Made by a program: the position numbers and the translations under genes. Below the pieces are notes generated by a model. The model had not been told where the DNA came from and searched no databases. It saw only the letters and a list, made by a program, of their open reading frames with translations. Positions 1,874 to 64,000 of a DNA stretch of 64,000 nt are shown one piece after another. Position 1 is the stretch's first letter, and every line of letters begins with the position of its first letter. This DNA is from Tubiluchus corallicola. Taxonomy: Eukaryota > Animalia > Priapulida. The DNA lies in NCBI GenBank assembly GCA_030141605.1, contig JAQGDQ010000012.1:496001-560000 (forward strand), given 5' to 3'.

Positions 1874-9359
<7,486 letters not shown>

Positions 9360-11359: not shown

Positions 11360-12537
11360 ACAGAGCAGATGGGCGAACATCAAGCTCCTCTGCCAGCAGA
11401 TGGATCAGCAGGCGCAGCAACCCAAAGAAGATATGGAGCGGCAGGCACAGCAACACAGAGAGATGGACGCTATGAGGAAACTGCTTCAGACTAGAACTCT
11501 TGAAGAGAATTCAGCTCAAGCGCCCACCTTCCACCTGCATCAACACTTACAGCTGCCATTCCACCATTTGCTGCTTTTGATCCACTTTCTGAACTGTGGC
11601 CTGACTACTAGTCAAGATTTTGTATCTTCATGGCAGCCAACGCAGTGCCTGACCAACGCCAGGCTCAAGTTTTCCAAACAAATCAGACTGCATGTGTTTA
11701 CAAACAACTGGCAAATCTAGGGACACAACAGTCTCCACCCAAGGATCTCAAAGAACTGACAATTGATGAAATTGTCGACTTTATGAAGGAACAGTTTGAC
11801 CCGAATCGTTTCATACTGCGTGAACGTTTTAAGTTCTGGAGTAACATGCAAAGGAAGCCAGGCGAAACTCCCCATGAGTTAGCAGCCCGCATTCGCCAAG
11901 ACGCTGCTACATGTGACTTTCCTTCAATCCGAAACCCACTAGATGAAGCTCTGAGACAGAGGTTCATATGCTCCATCAATAACGAAGCTGTTTTGAAGGC
12001 TATCTTCAAAATCAAGGATGAAGAGCTGACTTTTGCCCATGCTATCCAAATTGCTGCCAAGACTGAAGACGCGGCAACGGCAGTCAAGGAAACTGTTTAC
12101 GGTCCCAAGCCCAGGCCCGTCAACAAAGTCAAGACGAACCAAAACAAGGGTCAACGTAAGAACCAGCAACAGTCACATTCCACAGACACGGATACAAGTG
12201 CTACTGTTGTGGAAAGGCCCACAAAGTGACTGACTGTCCATACAAAGATGCCAAGTGCCATTTCTGCAACAAGAAAGAACATTTGGAGGCTGTCTGCATG
12301 AAGAAGCAACGACAGCAACAGGACCAAAAATCTGGGAAATCCGTGGGGAGAATCGGGAAAGATGAGCTTGTCAAGGCGATCCTTGTAGAAGTTCCCGACG
12401 ACTCTCCTAGATTGGATGTCAAAGTCAACATCCAAGACCAACAGTTCGCAATGGAACTTGACACTGCAACATCCGGAAATTTTATTTCAGTGCCGGTCTG
12501 GAAGCAACTGGGCAAGCCAAAGCCCAACTCCAACTAA
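11360..12537 (+). mobile_element. Decayed Ty3/gypsy (Mag-like) LTR retrotransposon gag and partial aspartic protease
   Basis: Gag motifs PFAAFDPLSELWPDY*SRF, RERFKFWSNMQRKPGET..ELAARIRQDAATCDF and LRQRFICSINNE. Tandem zinc knuckles CYCCGKAHKVTDC and CHFCNKKEHLEAVC. Protease-like MELDTATSGNFIS. In-frame TAG at 11609-11611, frameshifts near 11520 and 12190, and truncation at 12537. No RT or integrase seen. Confidence 0.88.
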
Positions 12538-38700: not shown

Positions 38701-39849
38701 GGTCCTATGTGTCTGCAATGTTTCCAGGATTGGACTCCATCCCGTGATATGTATGTTATATTCTTCTGTTACCATGTTGTTCACTTTGAGATTTCTTTTT
38801 TCTAGTAATTTTGAACATCCTTTTTTAACAGTATCTGTGCAGAATTTTGAAATGCTAATCCATTCACTATTGTTTGCATATTGTTGGTTTATTAGGAATG
38901 GTTTATAGGAATCTGGTGCAGGATAATAGTGTGATCACCACATAGAAAGGGGGATTTTCTATGGAGGTGGCTTCGTAGTCATGATCTGCAGATGAAACAT
39001 CTTCATTCTGGAGTGCATTGGCTAGGTACAACGGGAAAAGTACTTGACTGGACAGTCACCTGGAGGAATTCTGATGTTAGTTTTCGAAGTTCTTCCTACA
39101 GTGTTGCCTGGTTTTACATGAAGCCTGCATGACATCTTTAAGTAGAATTGTTATCCTGTTGATCTGGTTTTAAAATAGATTTTAAATCATCAAATAGTAT
39201 TCCTCTATCAACAAGAACAAATGCCTTGCTCATATCAGGCAAGCAGTAATACTAACAGAGTAACTGACAGTTATAGCTTTTTTGGTTAAGCAGACATGAT
39301 TAATTCTGTATTGTTCGTTTCTTCACTATATGCGATTTGGGTAACTAGTATACTGTTGGTCAGTCTGTCGTGTATGCGTCTGACCATACAAATTGCCAAA
39401 ATTTTCCGTAGTAGACTTATAGAATAGTTATTTTCCTCAATAGTGTTCCGGTCGGGGGAAGTAATCATGAAAATTCAGTAAACGCAAAGTCATATCTCAC
39501 CTGCGGCCTAAAAGGTATCCCATATTGTTGGTTTGGTCCACCTTCAGAAATGGTGCTGACAAGCCACTAGCGTAGCACTGGCTAGTTTTTTTGCTGGATT
39601 ACTGATGCGTTTACGTGTCTGAAGGCAGATTTCTTTTATTTAGTACCCCACGGGTCATTTGCGGCTTGGCCTCTTGTGCACATAATAATAAATACTTTTA
39701 TGTACAATGCTGTAATGATCATTGTGGATATATTTAATAAATAAAAAAAATATTTGTTGTCAGTATTTTAGAATTCTGCCTGCCCAATGTCTACAATAGA
39801 CGTGACGGGCGTATGATGATGATGAATTGAAATTAGGATCTATGTATTT

Positions 39850-41530
39850 TTCTGGATTGCTTTTCCAGTGTCTATCGAGACGAATCTTAAACTGGACAGG
39901 ATTGGAGGCTTGAACTACAGTGGCAGGCAGCATGTTCCATTCATTGATTACTCGACTTGCAAATGTAAACCTTCTTCTACTCCTCCTTTGTGGAGCTGTT
40001 CTTTTCTTTATTTTGTAGGAGTGACCTCTGGTACCATGATATGTCTGTCGATATTTCGCTGTTGATGGTTTCTGTACTTTTAAGGATACGAAATGTTTGA
40101 ATCAAGTCTTGCATTTTGCATCTATACTTCAGAGTTGTAAGGTCCAGACTTTTTGGTCGTGCAGCATATGGTAAATGAGAAACAACAGGTACGATTCTAG
40201 TAGCTCGACATTGTATACTTTCAATTTTCCTTATCATGTCTTGACGACTTGGGCTCCATATCACAACACCATAATCTAATGTAGGGTGAACCATCGACTT
40301 CTGTAGCTTGGTCATCATAGATCCATCAAGATAAGAAAAGCTACGAATTAATGGAAGGCTGATTAAGGTCAGTCTTCCACGTGCTTTATTAAAAACATTA
40401 TTAATATGTGTTTGAAATTTAAGCATACCATCGATGGTGATACCCAGATCTTTTTCTTCTGTGATGCTTATAATTTCTCTAGAATTCTGTCCATGTGTCA
40501 TTTTGTATGTGTGACCTGCAATATAATGCCTTCCAATAGTCAGGATCTTACACTTTTCAGTGTTAAATTCCATTTGCGATTGGCATACACCATTGGTCAG
40601 CATTGTTAATATTATTCTGCATGAGCTCAAAATCAATCAAGCTTTTCCATATATTTTAGTGTCGTCTGCAAACAGGCTATTACCGCAGTTGAAAACTTCA
40701 GGAAGGTCATATATGTAAATAGTAAATAAAATACTTCGGTCCAAGCATACTTTCTTAGGGTGTACCACTGGTCACATTTGCCCATTCTGATTCATACCCA
40801 TTGACTACTACACATTGCTTTCTCCTACAGAGAAAACTATTAATCCATGTTAGCAGGTGACCACAAATTCCGTATGTCTCAAGTTTTTGCAGCAGTCTCG
40901 CATGGGGAACTCAATCAAACTCTTAAAAAAATTGTAATAGATAACATCAACTTCAATGTTGTTATCAAGTAAATCCACCCATTCTTCAAGTGAAACTAAT
41001 AGGTTTGTAATACAAGATCTACCAGTTCTGAAGCCATGTTGGCTGTCACTAATAAGGTTATGTTCAGTATTGAAGTTGTAGATTTTATCCCTTAGTATTC
41101 CTTATAGCAGTTTACAAACAACTGTTGTCATACTGATAGGTCTGTAATTTTTTGCTAAGTCTCTTTCACTTTTCTTGTGGATAGCAGAAACAGTGGCAAT
41201 TTTCCAGCTCGGTGGTAATATACCACAGGCCAAACTTTGGTTCATTATTTGTAGCATGGGACTGATAAGGATATCTTCATTATTCTTAATTATGCTTGCA
41301 TGGATTCCATCAAGGCCCATAGATTTATTAGCCTTCATTATTTAACTTGTGTACTAAGCTCTAATTTAGTGATGGTACATACATCAAGTTTATGCTCAGT
41401 TACTGGTAGTAATTGAAGAGTTTGACTTGTATCTTCATTTGTGTAAATAGATGTGAAAAAAAATCTATAGTTCATTAGCCTTATTTTGATCAGTAGTGGC
41501 AATACTACCATCTTCTCTTCTTAAAGGTCT
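39850..41530 (-). mobile_element. CR1-clade LINE remnant (reverse transcriptase and C-terminus), 5'-truncated and pseudogenised
   Basis: GLDGIHA...WKIATVSAIHKKSERDLAKNYRPISMTTVVCKLL; QHGFRTGRSCITNL; catalytic SLFADDTKIY near 40660; FNTEKCKIL; EEKDLGITID; RVINEWNMLP...FKIRLDRHW. Stops and frameshifts present. Confidence 0.9.
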
Positions 41531-44109: not shown

Positions 44110-44709
44110 ATGCTGCTAATACTTGAAGAAGAACACAAAAAACATTTAACATTTCTTGACAATCTGGAGTTAGAAACATTACGGGAGTTTTTGCGTATAT
44201 CTATAGAGTTTATTGAGAAAGGAGCAAATGCACGCATGTATCAGGCAGCATCAAATAAACTAGGTGTTGATGCAGAGACTATTCAACATGGTGTTGAAGG
44301 ACTAATGCATCTTTTCATTGAAAGTTGTCGACAGAATATCAGTGAACTGGATTTTCAGGATTCCATGCAAATGCTTGGTTTTAATGAGGTCACTTGCAGT
44401 GAGCTTCTACGTGCATATCTAGAAAATTGCAAAGTAGTTCGAAGCTTAATCGCTGACACTCGATTCAGTTTGCCACATTACCAAGATCTTCAGTGGCGGC
44501 TGGATGTGCAAGTATCGTCTCGCTCATTACGACGGCAGGCTAAGCCAGTTATTTTAATGAAGCTTCATACTGAAGCTCGTGGAAAAAAGGAAGTGAAACT
44601 GTTAGAAACTGACCCCGTTAATCTGATTCACATGACACAAAATCTAGAGGCTGCCTTAGATGAGCTGAAATCTGGACATTGTAGGCGAATAATGCGGAAT
44701 ATTAAGTGA
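44110..44709 (+). CDS. COMMD2: COMM domain-containing protein 2 (Commander/CCC complex), single coding exon, 199 aa
   Basis: Colinear with recalled human COMMD2: MLLxLxEEHK.HL.FL, QHGVEGL, ISELDFQDS, COMM domain LPHYQDLQWRLDVQVSSRSLRRQ, TDPVNL and C-terminal HCRRIMRNIK. AATAAA at 44938-44943. Confidence 0.96.
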   Translation: MLLILEEEHKKHLTFLDNLELETLREFLRISIEFIEKGANARMYQAASNKLGVDAETIQHGVEGLMHLFIESCRQNISELDFQDSMQMLGFNEVTCSELLRAYLENCKVVRSLIADTRFSLPHYQDLQWRLDVQVSSRSLRRQAKPVILMKLHTEARGKKEVKLLETDPVNLIHMTQNLEAALDELKSGHCRRIMRNIK

Positions 44710-47700
44710 CGTCGTCTAAGCTCTTGATAAACACTTAATTTTTTAAGATAGTAATTGAACATTAGAAAAAATTTTAAAAGGAACTCAAGTGTCCTATAAT
44801 TAAGAAACTGTATGATGTTCACGTTGTTCGCTTTCCAAAACTTTATTTAGACTCAACGTATTTTATTGATTATGATAAAAATAACAATTAGCAACTTAAT
44901 TATACGTAATCTTAATTCCACGGTTAATTAGTGACAGAATAAACAAACTTAAATGTTTTTATGAAATGTTATGCCGTGTAATTGTTTATTAAACATAGCT
45001 GGAGTAAGAAAGCATAAAAGCTGAACTAAGTCTGAATTTGAACTAGCGATCTTTAAATATTTGTAACAGTCCTTCGTGATTAGGTCAGTACTAATTTATT
45101 TCTAGTAAATTTTCATTTTTACCAGTTTTATGTAATTACCAGAGTAATTACTACCTGATCTCGTTAATTTTTTATTTAATGTTGTTATCTTTGAACAGCT
45201 TGTCAGTAAATAATTCCATGATTAATTGAAATTGCTTATTGATGGAATGAATAATAATTAGCGACAATTATTCAGTGATTGACCCACAGTTATTCTATGC
45301 TCCAAATTCATTAAAATTAAAAAATAAGCTAATCAGTTCCCTAGTGTGAGTACTGTAACCAATCATTATTGACAGCACTTTCTAGATTCTTAAGGGAGAG
45401 ACTGGCTCAAGACTTTCGCTTTGGTTCGCAAACTGAGACTGATACAGCTACTACTTTCTAATATAGATAATACATTTGATATAAATAAGATCTGTCACAA
45501 AACACAAAAACTTTTGCAGTTACGCAAAGAACCATTCAGTGTCTTCTATGCGATCCATTGTAATTTGCTGTTGTGTCAGAATATTTTTTGTGAAAATTTA
45601 ATGTATTAGCAATGCATGACCAATGCAGTGTATAAATTGTTTATAGTAATTATAAATTAAAATCTAATGATCAGGTTCATGTAGTAAGATATGTTGCATG
45701 TTTTATAAACACTTATCTCGTTTCTTCCAAAAGATACGACTAAACATGTGGCAAATTGGTCGAAATATTGACACTTCCTCCTTGAAAACTCGTCAAATTT
45801 CTTTTGTCCAGTTTATAAATAATTATTCACAGCTTTGCTTAACCTGTTTCTGCAGGAGATCAACCGTGTATGTAGACATTTAAAGCAAGGAAACTAACAC
45901 GAACTATGATGTCAAAAAAGTAATATTGAAACTTTATCAAAGTCATTTTGTACAAATGGTAGAGAAATCCTTTAAAGATTTTTACACCAAATTATTCTCA
46001 CAGTATTGGTGCATATATAAAAGAAGGTATTCATTTAATACAGATTTTTACTATTCTACAGTAGATCACAATAACAGTTTCTTAAACAAATTTCGTTTCA
46101 TTGACCTGTATACAAACATAAATAAAAAAATATTTCTACACTAAAATGGCTGTGTAAATTAAAATTTTGAAAATCGGACGTGAACTTAGCTAACTATATG
46201 TGACAGATTACTTATCTAACACAAACAGGCCTACATCCTCTGTTGAACAACCTGTACTAGCATGATAAAATTTTAGCCATGAATCTTCAGTTTTAAGAGC
46301 GCTATTATTGCTCATAATTCTAGACCTTCTTAAATAATTACAGTCATGCTCATTTATATACAAAACACAAAATTATGTACATAATAAATTATGGCTAGCT
46401 ACCTTGGATTTCACACAAATTTCAAAGCATTATGTTTTACAATAAAGGCATAGTTTCAGTTGTTCCTCTCACAACCTCCAAGTTGGTCTATCAAAAAAAA
46501 TGTCAACACGAGTCTCACAACATCAATTTGCACCTACAATGATCTTGTAATATTTATTGCGCATAAGTATAAAAGGCCACTAACACGTCTTTGAAACAAT
46601 GTGTGCTTGTAAAACCAAAACCGTCCACAAGTCTGCATAGTTAAAACTGTATAATTTTTTTGTTTCTTACAAAAACAAGCACTAAATACATTGGACATTT
46701 TTTGTTCTGGTACCAAAATACCAGCAATTGTTTAGAAAATACCAAGAATTTAATTTTACTACTTCTTACCAACTTCTCTGCTTCAAAAACTAGTAAGGCA
46801 TTTGTCAAATTTGTCAAACTCCGATAGTAGCTCGTGGAAACTGTCATTTTGCTTGCGGTTTTATATGTTGCCAAACCCAGATTGATGTTTGGAAGAGCCA
46901 TGTACAGGACTTGAACGTAACTTCAATTCACTCTTGCAAAGTCTATGACAACCGTCAGTTTACAGTTGTAGAAGCGTGACAAAAATAATTGCAAACTGTA
47001 ACAGCCATTTTCTCAAGATTATGTTTTCCGTGTGCTACCTTGCACCATCGTGGATTATCTCAGTTTAGAAATAACATAGAGTAATGAACTTGGTGTCAAA
47101 ATGATCCTCATGAAATAGAGACTCAGGATATGTGAATAACTAAAAAAGCTTATATGCCAACTTCCGGACGTTTTTGTTGTACAAGGACACAATTATTATT
47201 ATGGAGGCACACAAAATGTAACACAAGGAGAGCACAACAATAAATGTCAAAAGCACCTGGAGAAGAAATGAAATGTATTTACAAGTTGTGTAATAAACGC
47301 AACAGTATTTACAATAAAACCATTAAAATACATTTACTGCATATATTACAATTGATTTCTCTCAAAATGTTCACTATTAAATAGTACACTATTCACAGAA
47401 ATCAAGCTCGCATTTAGAAAAGACTGAATGACTAGGACAACGAGCTAAATGTTCACATTCGGACACTGCTGTCAATGCGACTATACACAAGATTAGTTTT
47501 ATTGAATACACCAGCATGTGCTGTACCCATTCCACAATGCACTGTAGCAGCCTCATGCAAAACTATAAATCACGGATCTTGTGCACATATGCTAATAGGC
47601 CCATTCACATAAAGTTACCACAAACTTGGATCAAAATAGTAATGACTTATTTGGCTTACAAACCATGAAATACATGCAAAAAATCACTTTACATTGAAAT

Positions 47701-47724: not shown

Positions 47725-50700
47725 CTATACTTGTGTATGCACTGCACCATTTTTAATGCGCAAAGCAAGAACATGCAGCTCAGCATCATCATCAGTAAGA
47801 TTACAGTCACTCTCTGTGTACGATGCATTCGTAGACGTATAGCCACCCACTGAAACTGACATGTCGTCAAGTCCTGATATAGCACTAGCTGCTTCTGAAT
47901 TATATTCACTATCCATCTGTAGGCTGTTTCTAGCATTAGGTTCATTACATGGAACACAGTCATCTTCGGGTGGTGGAGAACGTGGTGGCGGCGGCGGCGG
48001 TGCCTCACCAGCAACAATGTTATTTTGATTACTATTTTGTTCTAGCAAGTCATCGCCAACATCATAATTATGGTCGGGTAAATACTGATTAGGATGTCTA
48101 TCATAATTACGCTGTTCAACTGTGCCATCATCCTCATCAGCGTAATTAAGTCCAGCAATTAGTGCACCAATATCTGGCTGCGGTAAGTTATTTTGATAAT
48201 CTAGCAGATTATCATCATCGAATTCAAATTCATTGTCAGCGAATTCCGAGTCACCCACATATTCACTTTCATCATCTATCATATCAGGATAACTAACTTC
48301 ATCTTCCTGTAAAAGGATGATAAACATTACAAGGTGCCTACGGCAATAACAGCTAAACCTGTACATGCAAGTAAGAATCTTAAGAATTTCATTTTTTCAG
48401 TTAACTGCATTAAAATCAATGGATCAAAACGATTTTCATTCATTAGATAATTTTTCAGAGCAATTAAAAAATCAAGGAACACATTTTCCAAACAAATGAG
48501 TTAGTGTTAAAGAATAAGAAAATTACTTAATTTACTACATATTAATCTGAGAAACAGTATCTCAACTACAAGAGCCAAATAACTTGTATTGATTTTATAA
48601 TAACCGCAGATTTTACAATACATTACAGAATTGCACCTTTTAGCTAGCAATGGCTTTAAAGTACAGCTAGTTCATTAGCTGGTTCATTCACAAACCTGTT
48701 CACTCAAAAATGGTTGCATTTCCTTCGGCTGTTCTTCTACGCAAGCATGTGTGTTTGATTCATTGCTGTGCAAGCTAGAAGTGTTACAGTCTGGTAACTC
48801 TTTCATCGATACTTCAGAGAGCTTGCCGAGGTTACTCCCATAAGCCCAATCTGAAGCATCCCAGTAATAACCTATAAAAATACTCAAACGTTATAATTCG
48901 CATACTAAAATAAGCAGCAAAGGATTAATGGCTTTGTTTAAATCATGTCTAAAGAAATAATTATATCATGAACAGGTAAGGCAAAATATTTTTTCACCTT
49001 TGCACTTCACTTCACGACTAACTGTAGTTGCATGAAACACCAAATCGCTGATTAAACCACTATTTTATTGACCACCATTAAACAATAATGGACAGTTTTC
49101 ACATATAATGTGTACATATGCTATCATGCTACCAGCTAACACTCGGACAATAAGCAAAGATTTTAAAGACACAGTAAGTACAGCGTATATCTTTTACAAC
49201 ACAAGATATAAAAAATATGCATAGCTCTTTTCGATGACATTCGAAACTTTCAGGGTGTTTGAAAGAAGTTTGTAATTGCCTGAAATCTTTTAACTTAAAC
49301 TAAAATGCTGAATTACAGAGAACTGGAAATGTCTCTGCATATTTTTTACTTATTTGGCACAAGTAAATACTTAATATAAGCCACACACATACTTCCAACG
49401 TCTTGTCCATGCAAGAATGCAAACAAAAGAAAAAACCATAATCTTAACCGCATACACATTTCAGTTATTTTATCGAATGCAAAATACAGTGTAACAACAT
49501 ACTACAAGCATTACAAATGATAACAAGTGTTTAACGCAGTCAAATCATGCAACATATATGATTAAAAATGCTTCCCACTCCCTAAGCTAACATTGTACTA
49601 ATTCACTATTATTTGAATTTGGATCATAAAATGTGTACAAATTAAAATGCACTGTTGCAAACTACATATAAACAATTATTAGCTTATAACATTGTGGTTG
49701 TGACTGGCAGCGATGCACTAAAGTAGCATAAAACCAAGGGCACGGGATAGAAAACATACATTCATCATGTAAAGAACACTAACAAGAATATGTCGTTATG
49801 CTTTTCACAATAAAAAGACACGCTACATTTCTATAAAGGAAAGAAACATGAATTTGTTCCATTCACACTGTTGCTTTGGCACTCTATGCACCAAATCGCA
49901 ATTTAGACATTAGAAAAATCATTCATTACCTAACTGCCATTAAAAAGGTACTGTACATAAAATGAAAAGCACCTGAGGTACAGGTAAAAGGTCTTTACGT
50001 GACTACATTTTTCTTTTGAACTGCAACAGTGTGAACTTTAGGAAAAACAAAATGTGTTCTAGTGTCCCAGGTAAGTGACAGACATTTTTCCATAGTACGC
50101 AGCACATTTTCAACACGAGGCTTTCAACATCTTTTACATTGGGATTACTGTACTAACATTACAACAACAAACATACCTGCACTTCTACCACAACGACGAG
50201 CATTGCTTAGTGGAACATCTTGTACATGGAAATAGAGAAGGCATTATGACTTAAAAAATCACAGTATCAGTAAGAAGGAAAGAATAACAAAAGTGTGTCA
50301 CAAATTCACTGCATTCTGAGAAACAACACTGCATTTGTAAACAACAAAAGTGTGTGAAAAATGAAGTGCTACATCAAATATAACTTTTTAACATACTTTA
50401 AAAGTATTAATAATAACTGTTACATATTATATTCACATGTTAGCTACTAATTTCATACACGTTTTTAGGGCTGCAGTTTCCATGCTACAATGCACTAACA
50501 GTTACAAAAAGATTTATTGTATAGTCATGCTTAAAGATCATGCTACTTTTTATGCAGTATGCATAATAAAGAAAATGTACATGCCAGCCATGAATTCTGT
50601 AACATCACAGACCTCAAATGTCGTTTAAACAGTCAGGTGTCAAAAAGGGCTATATTGCTACAGCTACTAAATATTGTCCAATAATTGTCTCAGAACAGGC

Positions 50701-53700
50701 AAATAAGGGTATTCATTTTTTAAATTCTACCAATTTCTAAATAAGTGAGACAAGGACAAGTTTTGGGAGAGACAATTTTCTTAGAACATATTTCATTCGT
50801 TAAGAGCAAGCCATTCAGTCCATACAAATGCAAGCAGAGCACATAGCTTAATATATACTCAATAAAATGGGTTATTGTAAAAAACATTTCACAATCAGAT
50901 CACGATGCATACAGACCATGGAAATGCCTTCAGTTACGACTATGGTATCCTAAAGTCTTATTCAGTATAATTGCTGAAAAGTACACTTTGAAACAGATGA
51001 AGGGAGAACATGCAATGAAGCTGTTCTATTTCATATGCACATGCTTGAATATGCTGCCTTGGCTAATAAAGCTAACATTACGAAAGTAACTGTAGTCAGT
51101 CCAAGTTCATAACAGGTTAACTTTACAAATAAGAAAACTGAAACATGCACTAACAACAAACAGTGCAGTAGTGCACAATTTTTACTACCTTCCTTTTCGA
51201 AATTGTTCAGCGGATATAAAATGTTTTTTCTACAATAGGGAATGCCACCTGGTCCACGCAGCTGCACGACTACAAGGTACCGCAAGAAAGCAACAAATAC
51301 AAAATAGCATCAGAATAACAAACTTATCAAGCTTAGTACCAATCCGATTTTGTAAATATGCAATTATATGAATATTCAAGTATTACAGCATTATAACACA
51401 ATTATACTCAAATATGCATAAGACAAAATTTGGTCATCAGTGTGGTTTTATAATGGTGTATTCCATCCTATATATAAAATGTGACATTTTTAACTGCCAT
51501 TTAAACTCAACTTTGGTAATATTTTATAATTGGTTTTTGTAACACTAATACGAGCAGAATTTTCTATATGCTAAGACAAATTACAACAAAAAAGCTATTA
51601 TTTTCCAATTTCGCTGCCTTTTCAGGTTTCTACATCACAGGTGTTGCTGGTAAAAGTTGAATATACTGCAATGAAATTTCATATGCAAGATTTCTAGTCA
51701 AATAATACTTGGATGAAGTGAAAAAAGATTCTACAAGCGGTATTCCACTAAAATCAAATTTGAATTTTACTCCATACAAAACTCGAAACGTTTTTCTGCA
51801 AATGAATTTTACAATGTATTACTTCAAATGAAAGTACAAGGCTGGGTCATTCTCTGGTACTTGCGACACAGCTTCTTCAATGCAAGTTAATTGATAATTA
51901 TTTATGGTAACATATTTATATTAACTTGCAAACCAGCACAATTGCAGTGTATGATAAAATTGTGCTACTAAATTAAGAATTAAAATGCTGGGCTATTGTA
52001 TGATATTGTGAATTATCAATCAAAATTTTTGCTATGGCAAACTAAAAATGAAATGTATCCCCAATTAATACATCAAAGGTCCAAACCTTTTGTCCAATCA
52101 CCAACAGTGATTTGCAACCGTGCACGTTTTCACTTAATATGATCTTAATTGTAGAATTACCTTAACTGTAAAATGAATATAAATTTGTTATTTGGAAATA
52201 CTGGCCTAAATCATTTACAAATAAAAAAACAAATACAGCAGAATAGAGGAAATTCAACTAACCAGGCAAGTCTTCTTCTGATACAGCAGGGAGTCCAGAT
52301 GCTGGAACTGGTGTGCCAATTTGTGAACGTGACCTTGGTGGCGTTGCAATGGCTAAAGCAATTGACGTCGGTTCTGATAAGACAAAAACACATTTAAATT
52401 AGGCAAGAAAAGTAGCACAATCAGCAAACAAATAATATGTATAATTATTCTTACTAAAATCAAAAATGGAGCAAATCAGGTACAAGAACCCTTGAAATTC
52501 ACAAAAAAGCACCGTCTGCAATAGCAAACTGATAATATTAATAAAATGAATCACATGCTTACGATTTCGACGCTTTCCTGCATCCCAGCATTTGCCAGGA
52601 TCAACGGGAATATTTGGAGTTTGCCCCAACAAGGGTTGTCGCAAGGACTCTGGCTCACGTGCACAATAAACCTAAAGAAACGTGCAGCAGAAATGTGGTG
52701 AATGAATATGAAAGCACAGAAAAACAATGACATGTCATGTCAAAAAGTACAACATGTCCTCCTTTATTTTACTTTCAATCAACCAGAAGTCCATATACAA
52801 TAAACCTATTTCAGTATTTATAAAGACACATTTTATAGTCAGTGAATTAACACTGAATTAGAGCATAGCAAGATGATTTAATATTATTATATACATCTAC
52901 TCGTATCATGATTAACATTTCGTGTATATATTGTCATTATAGATTATAGTTACTGAGTGAATTTTGAGTACTTTTGCAGTGATAAATTGTTTTAATATTA
53001 CTATTGTATTATCAAAAACATTTCAGACTCATACGCAATTTACAATTTCTCCAGCACATTTTATTAGGACTTGTACAGTTCATGAAGTTTGTGTAAATGA
53101 ATAAAATTGTTGAAACAAATGTAATTTTAGAGGTTATCCATCTCTACTACTCAACCATAAAGCCAATGGAATAGCAATAGGTTTCAGTTTTCTTTTCCTG
53201 TCAAACCAGATTCTGATATGCCTTAAGCTCAAAAACATTGTCGAGAAAGTCAGAAATTTTTGTATCTGCACTACACTTAAAGAAACTGTCATGCTGCCTG
53301 GTTGTCCAGTTCTTTTGTCCTCAATCACACCTAATAAACGACTATTTTTTACAATTTTATATTTTGGAAATTGTAAAAATGATCATTCTTTGGGAGAAGC
53401 ATTACTTGAGCAGCACAAGGCAACCTGGCACTCTGGCAGTGAGACTTAAAAAACAAGAGTGATCAAAAAACTGAAAATTCAACCACGCAGCAAAGTAAGC
53501 AGCACAGCATTAAGATACCAGGGACGTCACCCTACAACTTTCGCACACTTTACCTCATTACTAATATTTTTTCATCTCTCGTATACAAAGTAGATGTGGA
53601 CAAAGCTATGATTTGAGTTTAACATTAAAAATGCATATAGATGTCTAAAGAGAAATCAGTCAATCAATCAGACAACCACTAGTAATAAACAATAACTACA

Positions 53701-56700
53701 AAGCCAGCTACTCACATTTTTGTTTTGCACAAAGTTTCGGTCAAGTCGCCTGTTTTCTTCCTTAGTTGCATATCCTTGGTTAATGTTGTTTAAAGTTGGC
53801 TGTTGTTTAACATAAGAAAGTGGTCGAGGCGGCACATTTGGCTTTGATGGAACACGTTCATTATCAAAAACATTCATCGCTAAACCCTCCGAGTTATTAA
53901 TATCTTGAGACTTTCGTCTGTGGCGACATACCCGATATATTACAAACACCAAAGCCAGGATAACGATGACGGCAACAGCAATTATGGGACCTGGAAAGAA
54001 AACATGCTGAAATCAGTTTGCTGTCTTAATAAATGAACGAGCATTGAATGCACAATATATTCAAAAGCTGTAGTTTCACAACTTACAAACAAACTAAGTG
54101 GAAATGCTGTTTACGAACCTGGTTTACTACAAGTAAAATACGTCCAAAATGAAAGCGTTTATTTATTTAGTCGTTTATATGCACTGTGCATCTGAAAGCA
54201 AAAGTGGGAGACTTACCTACATATGTCCAATGGTTGACACCAGCTGCCGTTATTTTTGGAATGCTAGTGAAGTTTTCACAGTTAATACCTGTCATATAGT
54301 GATCACAGTGACATCTGTAAAAGGTACAAGAATCAAATATCTTTCATACTATGTATATAATGCAATATATAATGCAGTACAGGCCTTACAGTTATGTAGG
54401 TATGGGTATGAAAACAACCCAAAATTTGTCACACACTCTAGAGAAAGTTCGAGGAAAGGAAAGCGAAAGCGCAGCAAGTTCGATTTGCACGAAAATAAAC
54501 AATTTGCCAGATCAGACAATATACGAATAGCAGAAAATGTGTAATAATAACAAAATAAAAAAAGTATCTAAATTCTGCATTTAATAAGAAGCTGCAAAAC
54601 TCACTTGTAAGAACCATGTGTGTTCTCGCATGTGCCACCATTCAGGCATGGATTGCGTACACACTCGTCAATATCATACTGGCACACTGGTCCTTCAAAA
54701 CCCGTACAAACACATTTTGGTCCTACTGGCCCCTCTGTACAAGGCATGCTGTTGTGACATGGATTTGGCTGGCAGTAAAATCCGTAATCACATTGTTTCC
54801 CTGTCATCCGTCTGGGACACTCGCATGTATAATCATTGCCTGAAGAAACAAACTGTGATGCAAAGGAACAAGCTCATAAAAATGTGGGGCTATATGTATT
54901 TCTGATTATATTTATATTCACATCTAACATGGGGATCTTAATTGTACTCCTTAAAAAAATTAAAATTCACCAGGAATGTACATTCAGGGCATTGCAAAAA
55001 ACAATGCACAAACAAAAGCTATGAACACATTAAAATTACACCATAAATGTCCAGTAAGAGTGCCTTTATATTGGAATGTACACAAACGAAGTTACTGTAG
55101 TTAATCTCTTCTTATGTGATCTCAAGTTCAACCGCATTTTTTTGTGATTTGATCAGCAAATTTCAGGACATCAATATACTTCTACTGCACTGTTTTTTGG
55201 AACATCCTGTATATTGCCGCTTGCCAGTAAACCCATTAATTTTTATTCTGTTTGGATATTATCGCTCATTCTTATCGATTATAGCTGGATGAGTGTCACG
55301 AAAAACATAGTAAGCCGAAACCGAAGTGACAAAACATTCTCCTAAAATGACCATTAAGTCCAAGTCTATAACTGAAACATTATCACAAAAACTAACAACT
55401 TGTCAGAGGTAGCAAATAGACAACTTCGGTTAAGTTTCATAAAATTTTTAACATTCCATGAAAATAAATTTCCCTTCCCTGGTTCAGCAATGTCAAATGA
55501 TTTTCAGAAAAAAATTAGCAAATAACTCTTGGAAACAATGTCATTTCATAAATAAACAATAGGAACAAAAACGCTCACTTGTTATGTTATTCTTAAATAC
55601 ATACTTAAATTGTGGCACGTTCCACCATTGTGACACGGATAAGAGGCACAAGGATCAGTGTCTAGCTCGCAATATTCCCCTTTGAAACGAGGTTCGATGC
55701 ACTCACAATGGAAATGATTAGGACCAGTTTCCACGCAAGTGCCACCATTTAAGCATGGCCGTTGTCCGCAAACTCCTAACACCAGAGTACGCTGACATTG
55801 AAATGATATGTTCACTAACCTGCCAAAAAATAGTTAGCCAATAAAGCATTAGCTGCAATAATGATATAAACTGCTACTACTTTAAGCTATTTTCTGCAGA
55901 ATTCATTCATTTAACATGATCTCAGTAACATAAAGCTATTTTAGGGTATAATTTATAACTATAATTATACATATTACTATAAAACTTCATTACAATTTTT
56001 TATCTTAACATTTGGAACATGCGGAGTGACTTTTAGAGAAAAAATTAAATACAATATAACAGGTATTCAATGTTTAACAGTTAATATTTTACTAATAGGC
56101 CCAGGCCAATACATTTGATGCAATTTTAGTTTTGTTTGTCATTTTTTTCTTTTGAGTTTTGTATCACGAATGTATGTTATGTACATTGCCTCCCATTGCT
56201 AATTCTGTTTAATTTTGTTATTTAGCTTTGATTTTTATTGCTAAATTTATTTTTGCTCTTATTTTGTTTTATTACGTTACAACAATAATTTATATTTCGT
56301 TTTGCTACTCATTTTGAGTTCTGCTACATAAATGCAAGTGCATGTTGGTCATATAATTGCAATAAGTTGCCATTACTCGCATTTTTATTTCTGGTTGAGT
56401 TTTATCGCTAAATTTCTATTTTTGCACTTATTTTGCATTATTACAATTGGATTATAAGATTTATTTGCTGCTATAATTATTAGTTTTACAAGTACTTTGT
56501 TTTTATTTGCCAACATTTTGTTCAAATAAAATGCCTTCTTTGCTAGCTGTTAGTTAATATACTAACAATTTTTTCTAATTATAACATTATTTTTGATATA
56601 AACCTTTGTTATAATTAATTAATTTATTGTTATGCCATAAGTTGCATGTATAATGCTATAAGCAGCCACTAGTACACGCCATTTTTTGCAAAATTTACTC

Positions 56701-59700
56701 ACGTACCTTCGAACCTCTCCCACTTTATTAGCACCAGCTCTTGGCAAATTGATCTTGTCTATTTTTAGGTCAGCAAGACATCCCTTAAAACCTTTAGTCA
56801 CAGACGTGCGTCCACCACTAAGTTCAGCTACCTCTGCGCCAAAGAACACGTCATGGCTATTCAGATTTAAGACATCGTTTGTTCCTGGCACGCTGCCAAG
56901 TGCAGAAAACTTGCCATCGACAATTAGCTCTGCCTGCTTCTGGTTGCGATCAACAGTAATCTCATGCCACTGACCATCATTCACGTATATGTGATTCACA
57001 CGAACAAGGCCTTCACCACTCCCACAATCAAAGCGATACTGAACAAGGCCATTTACGATCTGTAACCATTAGTAACTCATTAAGTTCTGCAATAATTTGA
57101 CCAGTGTGCTAAATGATACATAAAAGCAAAATACAAACTCTTAACATCATGTAAAGTTAAAGATTGGTATTGTTGTCAAACAAGAGACACAACACATTCA
57201 GGTAAGTAGCAAAATATACTGCACCTAGTTGCAATAACACCAAACAGGCTATCAGAAAATTAAATTGTAGAAATCTATTTAACTAAGTTCAAAGTATGAT
57301 TAAGTTTACTAAAATTTAGAAAACTCAGGTAACAAGGTGCCTCTATTTGTGCTTCATTATTTTGTGTTTTAAACAAAAAACAGTGTCCTTGTTATATAGA
57401 TATATCAAGATTAGCAAAGATTATAATTACAAATATACACATGAAAAGAATCCTACCTCCAAAATGCTGTAGTCAACTCTGCCTGAAGTGTACATGAGAT
57501 TTCCACTATCAGCAATAGTTCGCACACTCAGAGACAGGCTAAGTCTTCGATCTATCAGATTAACCAGAGTATATCTTAAATAACTCGTACCATTGAGGCT
57601 CATTGGCTTCTTCTCTGAAATAACAAGTGACACAGTTAGCATTATCACTAACAGCTTCAACATGATGTCAAGAGAATGCATGAACATTATGTAGACAGCT
57701 ACGAGTTATTTGAACTGCCATTTTCAAATTTTTATCTGAATTTTTATCGGCACTGTAATTGTACAATGTGGTCTGATAAAGTGTGTACTGGAAATCAGCA
57801 CACACCTGGACCTGATTCTGAAAACTTTATTATCTGCCTTCACCTGGCAATGTATGTTTGCTTAAACCAAACGTAACACTCACATAATCACAAGCTGGGT
57901 ACATATGATGTTCAAAATTATAGCATGTTAACCACAGTATGTTATCAAATGACATACTATGCCAACATGACAAACATATTAGCTACAAGCGTAAAACGTG
58001 TCTTATCTGAATGAGGTCAATTTCAAGTGTAAACTACAGCAGTAAAAGCTCAAAAAAGGACTGAAGACAAAATAAGGCTAGACGTGAAAATGTAATTTAG
58101 AAAGTGCTGATAACCAAAAACTGTTGAAAAGCATTGTACATGCACAAATGAGCAATTAGGCGTATTAGTTTTGGTGTGACATCACTGTCATCTCTAGCAC
58201 CTTTAACAACGCAAGTGTATAAGAAGTAAAACATAAAATAAAATACGTATTACGAATACATCAGAAATACACCAAATTATACACATCACAGATGGCCAAA
58301 AATAATTTTTTAACACACGTAGATCTAGTAAGAAGGCAAGCAAATTCACTTATTAAACTGTAGCTGTATGTAATTATGAGACCTGGCATGGTGTTTCACT
58401 AGGCTGTATGACTAATATTGTGCCAAGTAGGGCTTACTCTCGCGATCAAATCTGTGATCTACAAGTGAGCTGCTAGCCATAACTTTATGAGTTAATACAT
58501 GCATTAAAGCTAATAATTAACTGTTTTGGCCAAACTTTTTTCTTGTGAATTACTTTTAGTCTAGGTTATGCCTATGCCTTTTAGTCTAGGTAATAATAGT
58601 TAGCCTATTATTATTATTATTGTTGTTGTTGTTGTTGTTATTATTATTATTATTATTATCATCATATATTATATTATTATTATTATCATAGATACTGGTA
58701 CAGAGCAATGCTGCTATGATAATAACTGCTTTAGTATTACTACAGTAACTCACAAAAATATTCCAGATAAGGCCATACTAACTCATTTGAACCTACAATT
58801 TCTTAAGTGCGCTTTCATTAGGCTTACACAACTTATGGCTTTTGTGCAAATGAGTGAAATGCTTGTAATTTCAGGGTTTATCCATGTCTACTACTCAATC
58901 AGATAGCCAAAAGAACAGCAGTAAGTTTCATTTTTCTTTTTTCCTGAACTACCAGTATCCCTAGTCTGAATACGCTCAAAACACTTGTCAGTAAAGAGCA
59001 AAATACAAATTCTCATGCCTTTTCGGCTTCCAGTTGTTTTGTGTCAATTACACCTAAGAATCCACCATCCTTTTACAATTTCACCATTTAGAAAACATAA
59101 ATATGGGCAATCTTTGTCAGATGCACTAACTGAGCAGCACAAGACAAACTGGCGCTCTGGCAGTAAAATGTTTAAAAAGCAGGAATGGACAGAAAAAAAT
59201 TTAACCACGCTGCAATAATAACCCAGCGTGATACCAGTGATGTTATGCTAAGGCTTTCACACGCTGTACCTCATTTCTAATTTTTTTTCATTTATTGCAT
59301 GTAGTGCATTGAAGTATTGCATGGACAAAGCTATGATTTGAGGTTAACATTAAAAATGCCTTCAGCATTACTTCAATAATTCTATTCTATTCTTCCGCAA
59401 TTCAGAGAAATACTGTACAACAAACAGCTTTTGTTTTGCATTTGTACAAACTCATAGACACTGTAATATCTAAACAGCTTGTAATTCACAAAATTATCTC
59501 CAGACAGTTGACTGCAAAACGTTGAGCGCAAGTTAAGAGCTACAATTTTAGATAGTTTCACAAAACTACAGTAGGTAGCGCTTAAAAGACTCACAGTTAT
59601 AGACTCAGTCGCTTAACTTACTCAAAAACGCTTGGTACCAAGCACTTATATTCAAATGTACATAAAAACTGTCAGTAATTGACTCAAATAACTCTGCATA

Positions 59701-62700
59701 ATTGACTCAATATTTTTGCTTCACATGCTTCAATAAGACACTTTCCTGTGACTAATAAGCTTTTATGACTTTTATGTCATCTTAGTTCGCTTTTGTCCTA
59801 TACTATACATAGAAACAATCATGTTAAGTACCATTTTGTTTAGAAACAGGAACGTTTATTATGCCCTAATATGCTAGCCTAATGTTTGCTCTAACCCGCC
59901 GGTCTAATGCAATTAACCTCAATACCCAAGAATTCCTGGAAGCTAAACATTTAATCACTTGTTAAGCAGTTTGCTTTTGAAGCTCTGCCTGTCTTTGCCA
60001 GAGTTTAATCAGTTAGGTCTTGCTGTTATGCCAAGGATGCAGGTACGGTACAGTAAGCACCTCACAATAGCAAGCTGGAGCTTAGGCGAAACTACAGACG
60101 AAGCTACTTGCGGGGAAACACGGGCACCACCAACAGTTTAAGCAAGCCAAGCACTAAGTATTTTACGAGAATCTGTGCATCATACAACAACAGATTTTCA
60201 ACGTCTTTCTCATTATGAGAATTTTGTGAGCCAAGTTTTTCACAATAAGATGAAGCAGCCGACTTTGAAGGAATTTTTGTAATTTTTGCAAATAAATAAA
60301 CTTGCGTGATTTAGGAAAGTGTACTCTTTAATTTATTGCTAATTCACTTATGTAAGTTAATATTTTAAAATACTTTTCTAATTTTTAACTGCACAAAGGA
60401 ATTTAGGCATTACTTCGTTCCTAAAATTCATTAAAAAGCTTTGCAGTGTATAGTATGCTGGTGACTCATACTTCTGTACCAGTAATACTACACCCGTCAG
60501 TTAACTGGGCAAAACACTTCGCTCCCAAGATGAGTCTATTGAGCGGCGCCTACTGTATATCAAACTGGCAAGTAAAAAAACTGTATTAAGTTGGAGCTAC
60601 AGAACTGATTCTTCAAAATACTTCAAGAATGAAATGTTGATTGTTATACAATATAATTAAAAACTTACTCTCTAAGCAGTGATCATCTATGCAGTTTTTA
60701 TCTACGTCTTGTTCACAGGTGGGACCTGTCTTTCCATCCTGACAGACACACATGTAACCCACAGCAGACATGACAGGCACACAGATCTTATAAGATGGGC
60801 AAGGTTGCCTAGAGCATTCGTTAATCTCAAGCTCGCATTTCTCTCCTGTTAAAAATGTTTATACAAATTTGTCACAACAAAGAAAATAATGCTTTGTAAA
60901 CAGAAAGAAGATTATACTTAGCATGAAAAGGTACATATTCTCAGTTTCTTTTTGAATTTTGAATTACTTTTTATTAAGTTCTGCATGTTTACAGTATGAT
61001 TTATTGTACGCAATCATAGTGGTATGTTATAAAAAAATGCATTCTTTTACTCCTTTTTTTAATGTTAATCAGTTATAAAGAATATTAACTGAAGTCCACG
61101 ATATCCAAAGCTGTATCATTAAATAAATGTATTAACTGAACAAAGCAGGTGGTTTAAGGTACAAAGCATATACATATGACTAGATTAGCAGTAATTACCT
61201 CCATAGCCTTCAAGGCAGTAACAGTCGTGATCACGCTTGTGGACTGGAGAAACAAAACTAGTACTTGGTGTCACAACACTCACAACTTCCAGTTCATCCA
61301 GCATTAGTTTTTCACGACACATCCCTTGATGGCAAGTGTCAGCATTGCAGATCTCTGGCACTAAACCGATGATGTCTATGCCCATGGATTCTTCCATGGT
61401 ACGTAATGCATCAGCATTCAATTTCCGCCGCAAGACAATTGGTTTGTAGAAGCTATTTTCCTTCCTTCGAACAGCAAAGAGTACATCCAGGTCAGATGTT
61501 TTACGTTTAAATCGACCACTGCTTAGTGCTGTCTGTTGAATGCTGACTATGTATACATCTCTAGAGCGCACCATTAGCTCGTTCCGAACAGCACGGATAA
61601 AATGTTGTTTGTGAGCCAAAAGAAACTGCTCTGGAGTGACATCGGCAATTTGAATGCTAACACTATGTTGCAACATGTCTTCCGAGATCAAGATGACGGT
61701 AATATACACCTCTCCATAAGAAACGTATTTACCATCTGATACGCTGACGTTGACTTTATATTCACCCACATCTAAACCTTTGTGAGCTTTTATATAGCCT
61801 GCATTGTCAATATCAAAAACATGCCCATAAGGTGGCAACACCTGATATGATAATGTATCATATACATCTGCATCAGTTGCCTTCACCTTTCCAACAATTC
61901 CACCCGGAAATTCATCAAGGTAAGAATTGACACTAGCACGTAAACCACTAACGACGGGTGGATACTGACTTTCTTCAATCACATTTACTTTTACCCAAGT
62001 GTCAGAAAAGAGTGGTGGTACACCGTTATCAAAAACTCGAACTTGCAATGTGTATTGGCTTCGTATTTTGTAATCAAACTTCATAGCTGTTCTTAATGTG
62101 CCCTCTGGCACCATACGAAATTCGTGAGCATCGTTACCAGAAATGATATCGAAAGTAAATGGATCAGCATTTGGGGTGACATCATCATCGGTGACAGTGA
62201 ATCGCATTAGGCTCAAACCTATTGGTCGGTCCTCCTAAAAAATGTAATGTAACTGCTTGCAAACAAAACAAGATTAACACAGACTCAGAATTTCATTTTA
62301 AAGCCTTTGCATGTACAATTACATTTGCCTTTACCATTTCATTCACACTGGTAAAAGAATAATCCAAAGATATACTAACATATGCATCCATGTCAGCAAG
62401 TACACTAATCCCCTTCCCTGTGCATCTTCTTTACAAGCATATAACATATGTTGACAAAAATGTACCTGTACAATTACACTGTAGTTTGTTTCGCTGAATT
62501 TTGGTGGATTGTCGTTAGCATCCAGTAGCTCAATGTTCACATGTACAAAACTAGACAAAGGCGGTTTGCCACTGTCTGTTGCATGAACTTGAAGTGTGTA
62601 GCTGTCTCTCTGTAAATTTAACAGTGGAGATCAAAAGTTTGCAAAATACATTACATAATGATTGCTATTTTATGCAATGACTTATGAAACAAAAAATTAT

Positions 62701-64000
62701 ACATATTTTTGGTCAAGGAACTCGAGCCAAATATCGCTACACTTGGATGTTGTTCTTGGGGGATGACCTTTTTGAAGAAAGGCCCCTTGAATTTGCAATG
62801 GATTATCACCAAACTTCACAAGAGCATACTAAAACAAACAGGGGACGAAGTCAGCTTTTCGATCCATCATTTTAACCAAATACGTGGCAATAAAATAATT
62901 TAAAACTAAGGACCAATGAATCGTCGTAAAACTTTGCAGTAATATACTAGAAGGAGTTTAGCATCGATTGACAGAGCTGGACTTTCCATCTGCAATTTCA
63001 ACTTAAGATACTAGTTATATCGTCATTTTCAAAAAAGCCTAAGCCTCTGCCAATTTATATCATGGATCATCATAAAACTTTACAGTAAAATGTACTGAAA
63101 GGAGTTTTGTCTCAATGACGGAGCTAGGTTTTCGATCTGCCATTCTTAATTCAAGAAGGCAGAAAACATTATTTGAAAAAAAATAAGGCTTTATCAATTC
63201 CTAATCAGTCACCATGAAACTTTATATGAATGTGCTCGAACGAATTCCCCGTTGAGTGATGGAGTCGGATTTTTGATCTGCCATTTTGTATTCTAGACGG
63301 CAATAAAAGCAATAAAGATCACAATAAAGGTAGATAGCCCACAATAAAATGTGATTCCAGAGAAAAGCCTAAGGTTCCACCAATTTGCAAAAGATCGTTA
63401 TGAAACCCCAAAGAAATAAACAAGAATGAATTTTACAACGAGTGACAGAATTGGCTATCTTAAATTCAAGAGTTCATGAATTTAGCGAGTCACTCGAAAT
63501 ACAGTTCAAGTCAAGCTTGTTACTTACAGTTTCACGGTCCAAATGTTTGGCTACTGTTATAACACCAGTGCTGCCATCAATATCAAACATCCCAATTGCA
63601 TCACCCGACATAATGGAGTATGCTATGAGACCATTAAGAGAACTGTCCTCGTCTGTTGCCAGTAACTAAAACACAATCCAAAAATGTGTTACCCATTTTA
63701 TAGACATATGGGTATATTTGCATCTCCTAATTACAATAATGAAGCCTTCAAGTAAAGAAATAACCGGTTATTAAACACAAAAATATCAATTACAGCAGTG
63801 CATACCTGTATTACAGAGGTGCCCAGATCAGCATTTTCCTTTATTTGTGCACTGTAGGATGGCTGACTAAAACTGGGTGCATTGTCATTGTAATCAGTAA
63901 TATTTATATTCACTGTGGCAATGTTGCTAAGTGATGGAGTACCGCCATCGTTTGCTTGGATAGTCAAAAAATAGTCCTTTGATACTTCATAATCGAGGGG
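47725..64000 (-). CDS. FAT1/FAT3-type (Fat-like/kugelei) protocadherin, 3' portion: last cadherin repeats, EGF, laminin G, EGFs, TM helix and cytoplasmic tail
   Basis: Core exons (GT-AG, phase-consistent): >64000-63806, 63665-63528, 62609-62466, 62234-61199, 60845-60669, 57614-57457, 57059-56707, 55819-55605, 54839-54605, 54314-54217, 53990-53716 (TM PIIAVAVIVILALVFVIY), 52671-52563, 52373-52263, 48871-48696 (GYYWDASDW), 48306-47725 (ends HTQV*). Cadherin motifs DYNDNAPSF, LDRE and DANDNPPKF. A single LamG domain (YRFDCGSGEG...VNDGQWHEI), as in FAT1-3 rather than FAT4. Confidence 0.95.
48998..51269 (-). other. Array of candidate alternative cassette exons/microexons in the Fat-like cytoplasmic tail (51269-51189, 50218-50177, 50020-49973, 49401-49393, 49021-48998)
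   Basis: Each has an AG acceptor with an upstream pyrimidine tract, a GT donor, a length divisible by 3 and phase-1 ends matching the flanking exons. No transcript evidence. Confidence 0.5.
53120..53633. mobile_element. About 500-bp interspersed repeat, copy 1 (probable non-autonomous element) in a Fat-like intron
   Basis: Colinear with 58864-59359 (shared tatccat.tctactactcaa...ggacaaagctatgatttgag.ttaacattaaaaatgc). Imperfect subterminal inverted repeats aggttatccatctctac and gtagatgtggacaaagct. Confidence 0.65.
58607..58687. repeat. (TAT)n/(TGT)n compound microsatellite
   Basis: tattattattat-tgttgttgtt-tattattat read directly. Confidence 0.9.
58864..59359. mobile_element. About 500-bp interspersed repeat, copy 2, same orientation as 53120-53633
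   Basis: Diverged but colinear similarity over the full length to 53120-53633. Confidence 0.65.
62790..63480. repeat. Degenerate tandem array of about 140-150-bp units (about 5 copies) in a Fat-like intron
   Basis: Recurring blocks (g)atcatcatgaaactt..., tgac(g)gagct.ggttttcgatctgccatt(t)t and aaaagcctaagg. Confidence 0.6.

What the first reader, a model, noticed from the sequence alone, without database searches (positions are those of the whole stretch)
49391..49436. 9-nt microexon with a neural (SRRM4/Srrm234 eMIC-type) acceptor
Seen on the minus strand: GGTTTTTTCTTTTGTTTGCATTCTTGCATGGACAAG|ACGTTGGAA|GTATGT. This is a long polypyrimidine tract, two TGC motifs close to a weak AAG acceptor, a 9-nt exon and a strong donor. 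Known: UGC shortly upstream of the 3' splice site together with a strong 5' site characterises microexons controlled by SRRM3/4 (Srrm234 in invertebrates). Inference: a neuron-specific 3-aa insert (DVG, which also changes the following G to S) next to the conserved YWD motif.
Basis: partly seen in the sequence, partly recalled or inferred. Interest (0 to 1): 0.75.

Follow-up and report, generated by a model that had tools for sequence, protein, structure and literature searches.

The report
Microexon hot spot in Fat cadherin
The 9-base candidate exon has the right splice signals but no RNA or cross-species support, so it is only possibly used; it sits in a Fat cadherin intron that holds other small exons, one of which (24 bases) is likely an old optional exon shared with molluscs and annelid-like worms, at the spot where mouse Fat1 has a neuron-regulated microexon.

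Summary
The sequence is as described: minus strand 49401-49393, in frame, in the intron just before the YYWDASDW exon of a Fat1/2/3-type (kugelei-like) cadherin of a bilaterian invertebrate. It looks eMIC-like (43-nt AG-free zone, 71% pyrimidine tract, TGC at -20 and -12), but the donor is average, the acceptor is AAG, and 0.3-19% of shuffled introns give a comparable site depending on thresholds. No RNA covered it and no 3-residue insert occurs in 102 homologous protein records. I put it at about 50% real, about 30% real and Srrm234-dependent. The better-supported result is its neighbourhood: 81- and 42-nt exons are spliced in a relative's RNA-like contig, and a 24-nt basic exon (49021-48998) matches optional inserts in 12 of 12 mollusc genera compared and a conserved 24-nt island in two annelid-like loci. 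Mouse Fat1 has eMIC-dependent and neural exons in the intron before the same motif. Likely function: cassette inserts separate the acidic stretch from the tyrosine/WD motif and change cargo-adaptor binding and localisation, as shown for vertebrate Fat1/Fat3. Known kind of system, new member.

The parts
49393..49401 (-). candidate 9-nt phase-1 microexon (adds D-V-G and turns the next G into S); use unproven
   Evidence: sequence; site statistics; no RNA cover; no homologous insert
49402..49436 (-). its acceptor region: pyrimidine tract, TGC at -20 and -12 (the latter starts TGCATG at 49413), AAG; nearest branch-point-like word at -66
49387..49392 (-). its donor GTATGT, average strength for this gene; same hexamer as the constitutive donor after 55605
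48998..49021 (-). 24-nt phase-1 basic microexon (VSREVKCK), likely counterpart of the optional basic insert of mollusc Fat1-like proteins and of the 24-nt island in L008/L009; TGC at -11
50177..50218 (-). 42-nt phase-1 exon (DVPLSNARRCGRSA)
   Evidence: spliced in contig of run X2; its acceptor in this genome is uncertain because X2 has 12 extra nt in front of it
51189..51269 (-). 81-nt phase-1 exon
   Evidence: joined to the upstream exon and onward to the 42-nt exon in X2; TGC at -23 and -15
52263..52373 (-). upstream constitutive exon ending in the acidic SEEDLP stretch
   Evidence: open 14-exon frame; X2 joint; matches mollusc SESEDD(L)P/GSEEDLP
48696..48871 (-). downstream constitutive exon starting G-YYWDASDW
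47725..48306 (-). last coding exon of the Fat tail, ends HTQV-stop
   Evidence: GT-AG joint 48695/48305 seen in X2
48872..52262 (-). the hot-spot intron (3391 nt), enriched on the sense strand for TGCAT and GCATG
   Evidence: TGCAT 20 against shuffle mean 9.6 (0 of 500 reach it), 8 on the antisense strand, 6.5 per equal length in other Fat introns; GCATG 10 against 4.5 (6 of 500)
47725..64000 (-). 3' part of a Fat1/2/3-type (kugelei/Fat-like) cadherin gene: last cadherin repeats, EGF, laminin G, transmembrane segment, cytoplasmic tail

Best explanation
The site lies in the intron just before the tyrosine/WD motif of a Fat1/2/3-type cadherin tail; that intron holds a cluster of small frame-preserving exons, of which the 81- and 42-nt exons are spliced in a relative's contig, the 24-nt exon is likely an old optional microexon, and the 9-nt exon is possibly a young, lineage-restricted extra cassette. 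Mechanism (inferred from vertebrate Fat1/Fat3): skipping all cassettes joins the acidic SEEDLP stretch directly to G-YYWD; including any cassette pushes the tyrosine away from the acidic residues (the 24-nt exon also puts a basic patch there), which would switch off binding of a trafficking or adaptor partner and relocalise the receptor in the cells that include it. Inclusion would be set by tissue-restricted splicing factors acting on weak acceptors: Srrm234-eMIC through UGC near the AG, RBFOX-type proteins through (U)GCAUG, or both. Shown: gene identity, frame, splicing of 81/42-nt exons in a relative, optional basic inserts at the same site in molluscs, same intron position in 8 genomic loci. 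Inferred: use of the 9- and 24-nt exons in this species, tissue, regulator, binding partner.
For: 14-exon model without cassettes is one open frame of 1268 codons. All four cassettes are phase 1 and multiples of 3. X2 contig joins 52265 to 51264 and 51189 to 50220. Isoform pairs with and without a 7-9 residue basic insert at this exact point occur in 12 of 12 mollusc genera compared; none in Owenia (2 isoforms) or Lasioglossum (3). 8 of 9 fetched loci have an AG acceptor right before G-YHWD in the same phase; the ninth is a spliced transcript without insert. Between L008 and L009 the only aligned island in this intron is a 24-nt AG..GT exon reading GGAKCKRK / GGAKCKHK. A rule taken from the mollusc inserts (18-27 nt, YAG, at least 3 K/R, ending in K) hits only the window's 24-nt exon in 128 kb of both strands and 9 of 1000 shuffles. 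Mouse Fat1: 36-nt eMICdep, 60-nt and 53-nt Neural exons in one intron; Fat3 +32 insert disrupts DNXYH (Y4346, WD at 4348) and abolishes Kif5B co-purification (PMC5082931 sections 5-6). For the 9-nt exon itself: long AG-free zone, tract and UGC match the eMIC code described in 10.1101/2021.02.24.432780 section 9, and it is the only 27-nt-or-shorter site in the intron that passes moderate thresholds.
Against: No RNA shows the 9- or 24-nt exon. No 3-residue insert among 102 anchored protein records, 64 with inserts (records are redundant isoforms, molluscs plus Owenia). No 9-nt island in L008/L009. 25 of 68 intronic AGs with a 20-nt AG-free zone have a TGC within -25..-5, so UGC alone discriminates little. 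The 24-nt counterparts lack the eMIC signature: L009 has no TGC near the acceptor, L008 only the one inside TGCAG; a DNA alignment of the three 24-nt exons does not put them in register, so homology rests on position, length, phase and peptide type. The vertebrate Kif5 consensus ending D(D/G)XXY is not met by EDLPGY. Whether the 81- and 42-nt exons are optional in this species is not shown.
Confidence: 0.6

Rival explanations
1. The 9-nt site is a pseudo-exon: a chance AG..GT pair beside a pyrimidine run in an AT-rich intron whose TGCAT words serve the neighbouring real cassettes. The rest of the cluster stands.
For: AAG acceptor against 14 of 14 YAG; branch-point-like word no closer than -66; comparable sites in 4-19% of shuffles at moderate to loose thresholds; a same-quality decoy at minus 1197; 9-nt AG..GT sites with TGC also turn up twice in the 1228-nt partial intron of L001 under loose rules; no homologous insert; run X1 shows 4 differences in 266 nt around the site, two of them in the tract, no sign of constraint (one contig of depth 2, may be errors).
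Against: It is the best-scoring short site of the intron at every threshold but the loosest, in frame, in the right phase, in an intron known to breed microexons (Mytilus and Mercenaria carry extra 4-7 residue inserts besides the basic one).
Confidence: 0.45
2. One reading: the 9-nt exon is real, neuron-specific and depends on Srrm234-eMIC.
For: Architecture fits the eMIC code; Fat1 and kug are eMIC targets in mouse and fly; TGC within -25..-5 in 3 of 3 supported cassettes against 2 of 14 constitutive acceptors, Fisher p 0.015.
Against: No expression data; Srrm234/eMIC could not be looked for because no genome is held; UGC is neither strictly needed nor sufficient (79% and 74% of two microexon classes have it, 10.1101/2024.09.17.613571); background TGC rate 37% at intronic AGs.
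Confidence: 0.3
3. The 9-nt exon is real but governed by RBFOX/MBNL/QK-type factors (muscle or mixed pattern) rather than by eMIC.
For: TGCATG at 49413 overlaps the acceptor region and GCATG is enriched on the sense strand of this intron; the rat Fat1 36-nt exon is activated by RBPMS, RBFOX2, MBNL and QK in differentiated smooth muscle cells (PMC12721327).
Against: TGCATG itself is not enriched (4 against 2.4; 109 of 500 shuffles reach it); six motifs were tried after the fact.
Confidence: 0.2

Closest known systems
Vertebrate Fat1(+12/+32) and Fat3(+32) cytoplasmic splice inserts
   Same: Small exons in the intron immediately before the Y-H-W-D motif of a Fat1/3 tail; several cassettes in one intron (mouse Fat1 53, 60, 36 nt); insertion separates acidic residues from the tyrosine (PMC5082931).
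   Different: Lengths (81, 42, 9, 24 nt); DNXYH and the proposed Kif5 consensus are not present (EDLPGYY); vertebrate insert sequences were not fetched or compared; the mouse intron's phase was not checked by a call.
SRRM3/4 and Srrm234 eMIC-dependent neural microexons
   Same: 3-27 nt, frame-preserving, long AG exclusion zone, tract set back from a weak AG, UGC near the AG.
   Different: Neural bias and eMIC dependence untested; no CU-alternating tract or close CUAAY branch point as in fly targets; donor only average.
Drosophila kugelei (Fat2) 30-nt eMIC-dependent exon DmeEX0008375
   Same: eMIC target in the same gene family.
   Different: kug is not among the four fly exons reported at the same position as a mouse exon; its position relative to the YHWD motif was not determined here.
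Annotated mollusc 'protocadherin Fat 1-like' isoforms with a basic 7-9 residue insert
   Same: Same position, phase, size class and basic make-up ending in K as the window's 24-nt exon.
   Different: No mollusc record has a 3-residue DVG-like insert; tissue pattern unknown; these are automatic annotations, and I found no paper on them.

Membership tests
eMIC-dependent neural microexon | 3-27 nt, frame-preserving, flanked by AG and GT | tested here: met
   9 nt, phase 1, no stop
eMIC-dependent neural microexon | weak 3' splice site with long AG exclusion zone, set-back pyrimidine tract and UGC near the AG | tested here: met
   AAG, 43 nt, 0.71, TGC at -20 and -12; but TGC background is 25 of 68
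eMIC-dependent neural microexon | strong branch point; strong 5' site (mammals) or weak 5' site (fly) | tested here: inconclusive
   branch-point-like word only at -66; donor at the median of the gene's 14 donors
eMIC-dependent neural microexon | actually spliced into mRNA | tested here: inconclusive
   the one RNA-like run (a relative, contigs only) does not cover it
eMIC-dependent neural microexon | neural-biased inclusion and dependence on Srrm234-eMIC | not testable with these tools
   no tissue-labelled reads; no genome to look for Srrm234
eMIC-dependent neural microexon | conservation in relatives (common, not obligatory) | tested here: not met
   no 3-residue insert in 102 records, no 9-nt island in L008/L009; all these are distant relatives, no congener genome was available
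Fat1/2/3 (Fat-like, kugelei) cadherin | cadherin repeats, EGF, single laminin G, transmembrane segment, tail with Y[HY]WDxSDW and terminal HT[EQ]V | tested here: met
Fat1/Fat3 Kif5-interaction-domain splice switch | insert falls right before the Y-H-W-D motif | tested here: met
Fat1/Fat3 Kif5-interaction-domain splice switch | DNXYH motif or consensus ending D(D/G)XXY | tested here: not met
   window reads EDLPGYY against the consensus in PMC5082931; it may work like the switch but is not filed as one

The most novel reading that the evidence does not exclude
The intron before the Fat1/3 YHWD motif has carried a regulated microexon since the last common bilaterian ancestor: the 24-nt basic exon of this animal, molluscs and annelid-like worms and the eMIC-dependent 36-nt exon of mouse Fat1 descend from one ancestral neural cassette that flies lost or moved, making it a fifth deep eMIC site missed by fly-mouse comparison, with the 9-nt exon a newly born eMIC target in the same hot spot.
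Probability: 0.25. Interest if true: 0.6.

Novelty: new member of a known kind. Interest (0 to 1): 0.36.

Why it matters
Microexon programmes are thought to be almost wholly rewired between phyla (only four fly exons at the same position as mouse ones). A microexon site kept at one position in vertebrates, molluscs, annelid-like worms and this further lineage would be a rare test case for ancestry against repeated birth at a hot spot, and it has a known biochemical read-out in vertebrates (loss of kinesin-1 association, changed localisation). The 9-nt exon alone, even if real, would be one more example of a well-described class.

Tried and rejected
No whole genome is held, so no paralogue or Srrm234 search. 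The run search listed no RNA holder on record; X1 behaves as DNA (covers introns, no GT-AG joints) and X2 is a guessed RNA run about 93% identical in coding sequence (19 differences in 257 nt). X2's contig stops at the end of the 42-nt exon and another stops inside the YWD exon at an adapter, so neither skipping nor inclusion of the 9- and 24-nt exons is seen; this hole is not evidence. A homologue search with the last exon found nothing. Two look-ups of mollusc genomic loci were not on record, so mollusc acceptor architecture is unseen. L001, L002, L003 and L005 hold only 464-1228 nt of the intron and showed no basic exon; L007 has an 18-nt basic candidate. Trees (quick method, unrooted, the careful search unfinished, no deuterostome rows) place the gene outside the sampled annelid+mollusc group and outside the sampled arthropods; the phylum stays open. 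The mollusc microexon site in the last cadherin repeats (between ...VQ and ED...) corresponds to intron 62465-62235; reading it by eye I saw no frame-preserving candidate. Three look-ups of earlier scan findings gave nothing. No structure or complex prediction was run: the tail is low-complexity and no partner is known.

Full report
Observation. The 46 bases are present as quoted on the minus strand. The candidate exon is 49401-49393, with AAG before and GTATGT after.

Gene. The minus strand from 64000 to 47725 encodes the 3' part of a Fat1/2/3-type cadherin: the large exon at 62234-61199 hits 107 Fat-like proteins, the YWD exon finds scallop and ark-shell Fat1-like proteins, a laminin G exon is confirmed by Pfam, and a 14-exon model from 63665 to the stop gives one open frame of 1268 codons. 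Unrooted quick trees put it outside the sampled annelid+mollusc group and outside the sampled arthropods; the animal is a bilaterian invertebrate of open placement. The finding lies in the 3391-nt phase-1 intron between the exon ending SEEDLP (52263) and the exon starting G-YYWDASDW (48871).

What else is in the intron. Four frame-preserving phase-1 candidates lie there: 81 nt (51269-51189), 42 nt (50218-50177), 9 nt and 24 nt (49021-48998); any combination tried stays open. A contig of run X2, a guessed RNA run of a relative, joins the upstream exon to the 81-nt exon and that, through 12 further bases, to the 42-nt exon, then ends. So two cassettes are spliced in a relative; nothing covers the 9- or 24-nt exons.

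Is the 9-nt site more than chance? Its tract (0.71 pyrimidine), AG-free zone (43 nt) and two TGCs fit the eMIC code described for fly and mammals (10.1101/2021.02.24.432780, section 9 read; 10.1101/2024.09.17.613571, passages). Its donor is at the median of the gene's 14 constitutive donors and its AAG differs from 14 of 14 YAG acceptors. In 300 shuffles of the intron a comparable site arose in 0.3% at thresholds fitted to it, 4% at moderate and 11-19% at loose thresholds; block shuffles agreed. One look-alike of equal quality sits at minus 1197, past the apparent FoxK-like stop codon. TGC near the AG occurs in 3 of 3 supported cassettes and 2 of 14 constitutive acceptors (p 0.015) but also at 25 of 68 intronic AGs, because the intron is rich in TGCAT on its sense strand (20 against 9.6; 0 of 500 shuffles) and GCATG (10 against 4.5; 6 of 500), words recalled as RBFOX-type; six motifs were tried. 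Run X1 shows 4 differences in 266 nt around the site, none in the 9 nt or the AG and GT, from one contig of depth 2: uninformative.

Conservation. Among 102 fetched protein records with the acidic anchor and YHWD motif, 38 have no insert and 64 have one; none is 3 residues long. Isoform pairs with and without a basic 7-9 residue insert ending in K occur in 12 of 12 mollusc genera compared (bivalves, gastropods, a chiton, octopus); Owenia and Lasioglossum isoforms show none. Mytilus, Mercenaria and Octopus carry further small inserts at the same site. Of 9 metagenome loci, 8 have an acceptor right before G-YHWD in the same phase as the window. In L008 and L009, closest to Owenia among 12 named queries, the only aligned island in the intron is a 24-nt exon (L008 7135-7158, L009 7233-7256) reading GGAKCKRK and GGAKCKHK. 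A rule drawn from the mollusc inserts finds only the window's 24-nt exon (VSREVKCK) in 128 kb and in 9 of 1000 shuffles. Against a simple eMIC story, L009 has no TGC near that acceptor and L008 only the one in TGCAG, and the three exons do not align in register as DNA. Thus the 24-nt exon is the likely conserved microexon; the 9-nt one has no counterpart, though only distant relatives could be examined.

What is known. In table S2 of PMC8797185 (supplement rows seen) mouse Fat1 has a 36-nt eMIC-dependent exon and 60- and 53-nt neural exons in one intron, and fly kug a 30-nt eMIC-dependent, pan-neuronal exon; the paper counts only four fly exons at the same position as in mouse, kug not among them (passages). 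PMC5082931 (sections 5 and 6 and passages) places the Fat1 and Fat3 inserts in the DNXYH motif, with WD two residues after the tyrosine, and shows that Fat3(+32) loses Kif5B. PMC12721327 (passages) shows the Fat1 36-nt exon included in differentiated smooth muscle cells under RBPMS, RBFOX2, MBNL and QK, so the reference exon is not purely neural. Braun et al. 2007 was seen only as cited in these papers.

Mechanism. Skipping joins acidic SEEDLP to G-YYWD; inclusion spaces them apart, by 3 residues for the 9-nt exon (with G to S next to the tyrosine) or by a basic octapeptide for the 24-nt exon. By analogy with Fat1/Fat3 this likely switches a trafficking or adaptor contact and relocalises the receptor. 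The vertebrate Kif5 consensus is not met, so the partner is open.

Verdict. Observation partly confirmed; 9-nt exon about 50% real and about 30% real and eMIC-dependent; cluster of cassettes and deep conservation of a basic microexon at this site well supported by homology but not by RNA of this species. New member of a known kind; interest 0.36. Searches found no paper on the invertebrate exon; closed preprint supplements may list it.

Noticed in passing
window 50219-50231 (minus) and run X2: X2's contig has 12 extra bases (reading VPRS) before the 42-nt exon. No AG..GT exon of that sequence lies in 50221-51188; the 13 bases just upstream of the 42-nt exon resemble them but follow AT, not AG. 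Possibly an acceptor shift between the two lineages, or a microexon lost here.
   Followed up: partly
window 1189-1197 (minus): 9-nt AG..GT site with two TGC and a pyrimidine tract (GAG acceptor), about 680 nt past the apparent stop of a FoxK-like gene; probably a decoy.
   Followed up: partly
window about 1875-9359 (minus): FoxK-like gene: FHA and Forkhead domains.
   Followed up: partly
window 44110-44709 (plus): Single-ORF COMM-domain gene (COMMD2-7/10 type), convergent with the Fat gene.
   Followed up: partly
window 18236-18754 and 32295-32915 (minus): Two similar membrane-protein exons, resembling SLC10-type transporters by recall; tandem paralogues; no Pfam hit on these pieces.
   Followed up: no
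window 11612-12537 (plus) and about 39760-41520 (minus): Gag/protease-like and reverse-transcriptase-like broken frames, likely decayed retroelements (judged by eye; no Pfam hit for the two pieces scanned).
   Followed up: no
mollusc proteins P0109-P0280: Two further recurrent microexon sites in mollusc Fat1-like isoforms: a 5-6 residue insert in the last cadherin repeats (at window intron 62465-62235) and a 7-residue insert ending GPC near residue 2260, the latter also in the bee Lasioglossum; another candidate for a deeply shared microexon.
   Followed up: no
window 53000-53650 and 59000-59400 (minus); 47000-47150: Copies of dispersed repeats in Fat introns and 3' region, with many X1 contigs piling on them.
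   Followed up: no
L007 (intron part, position about 141-158): 18-nt basic candidate exon reading AAGKKQ upstream of the YHWD exon.
   Followed up: partly
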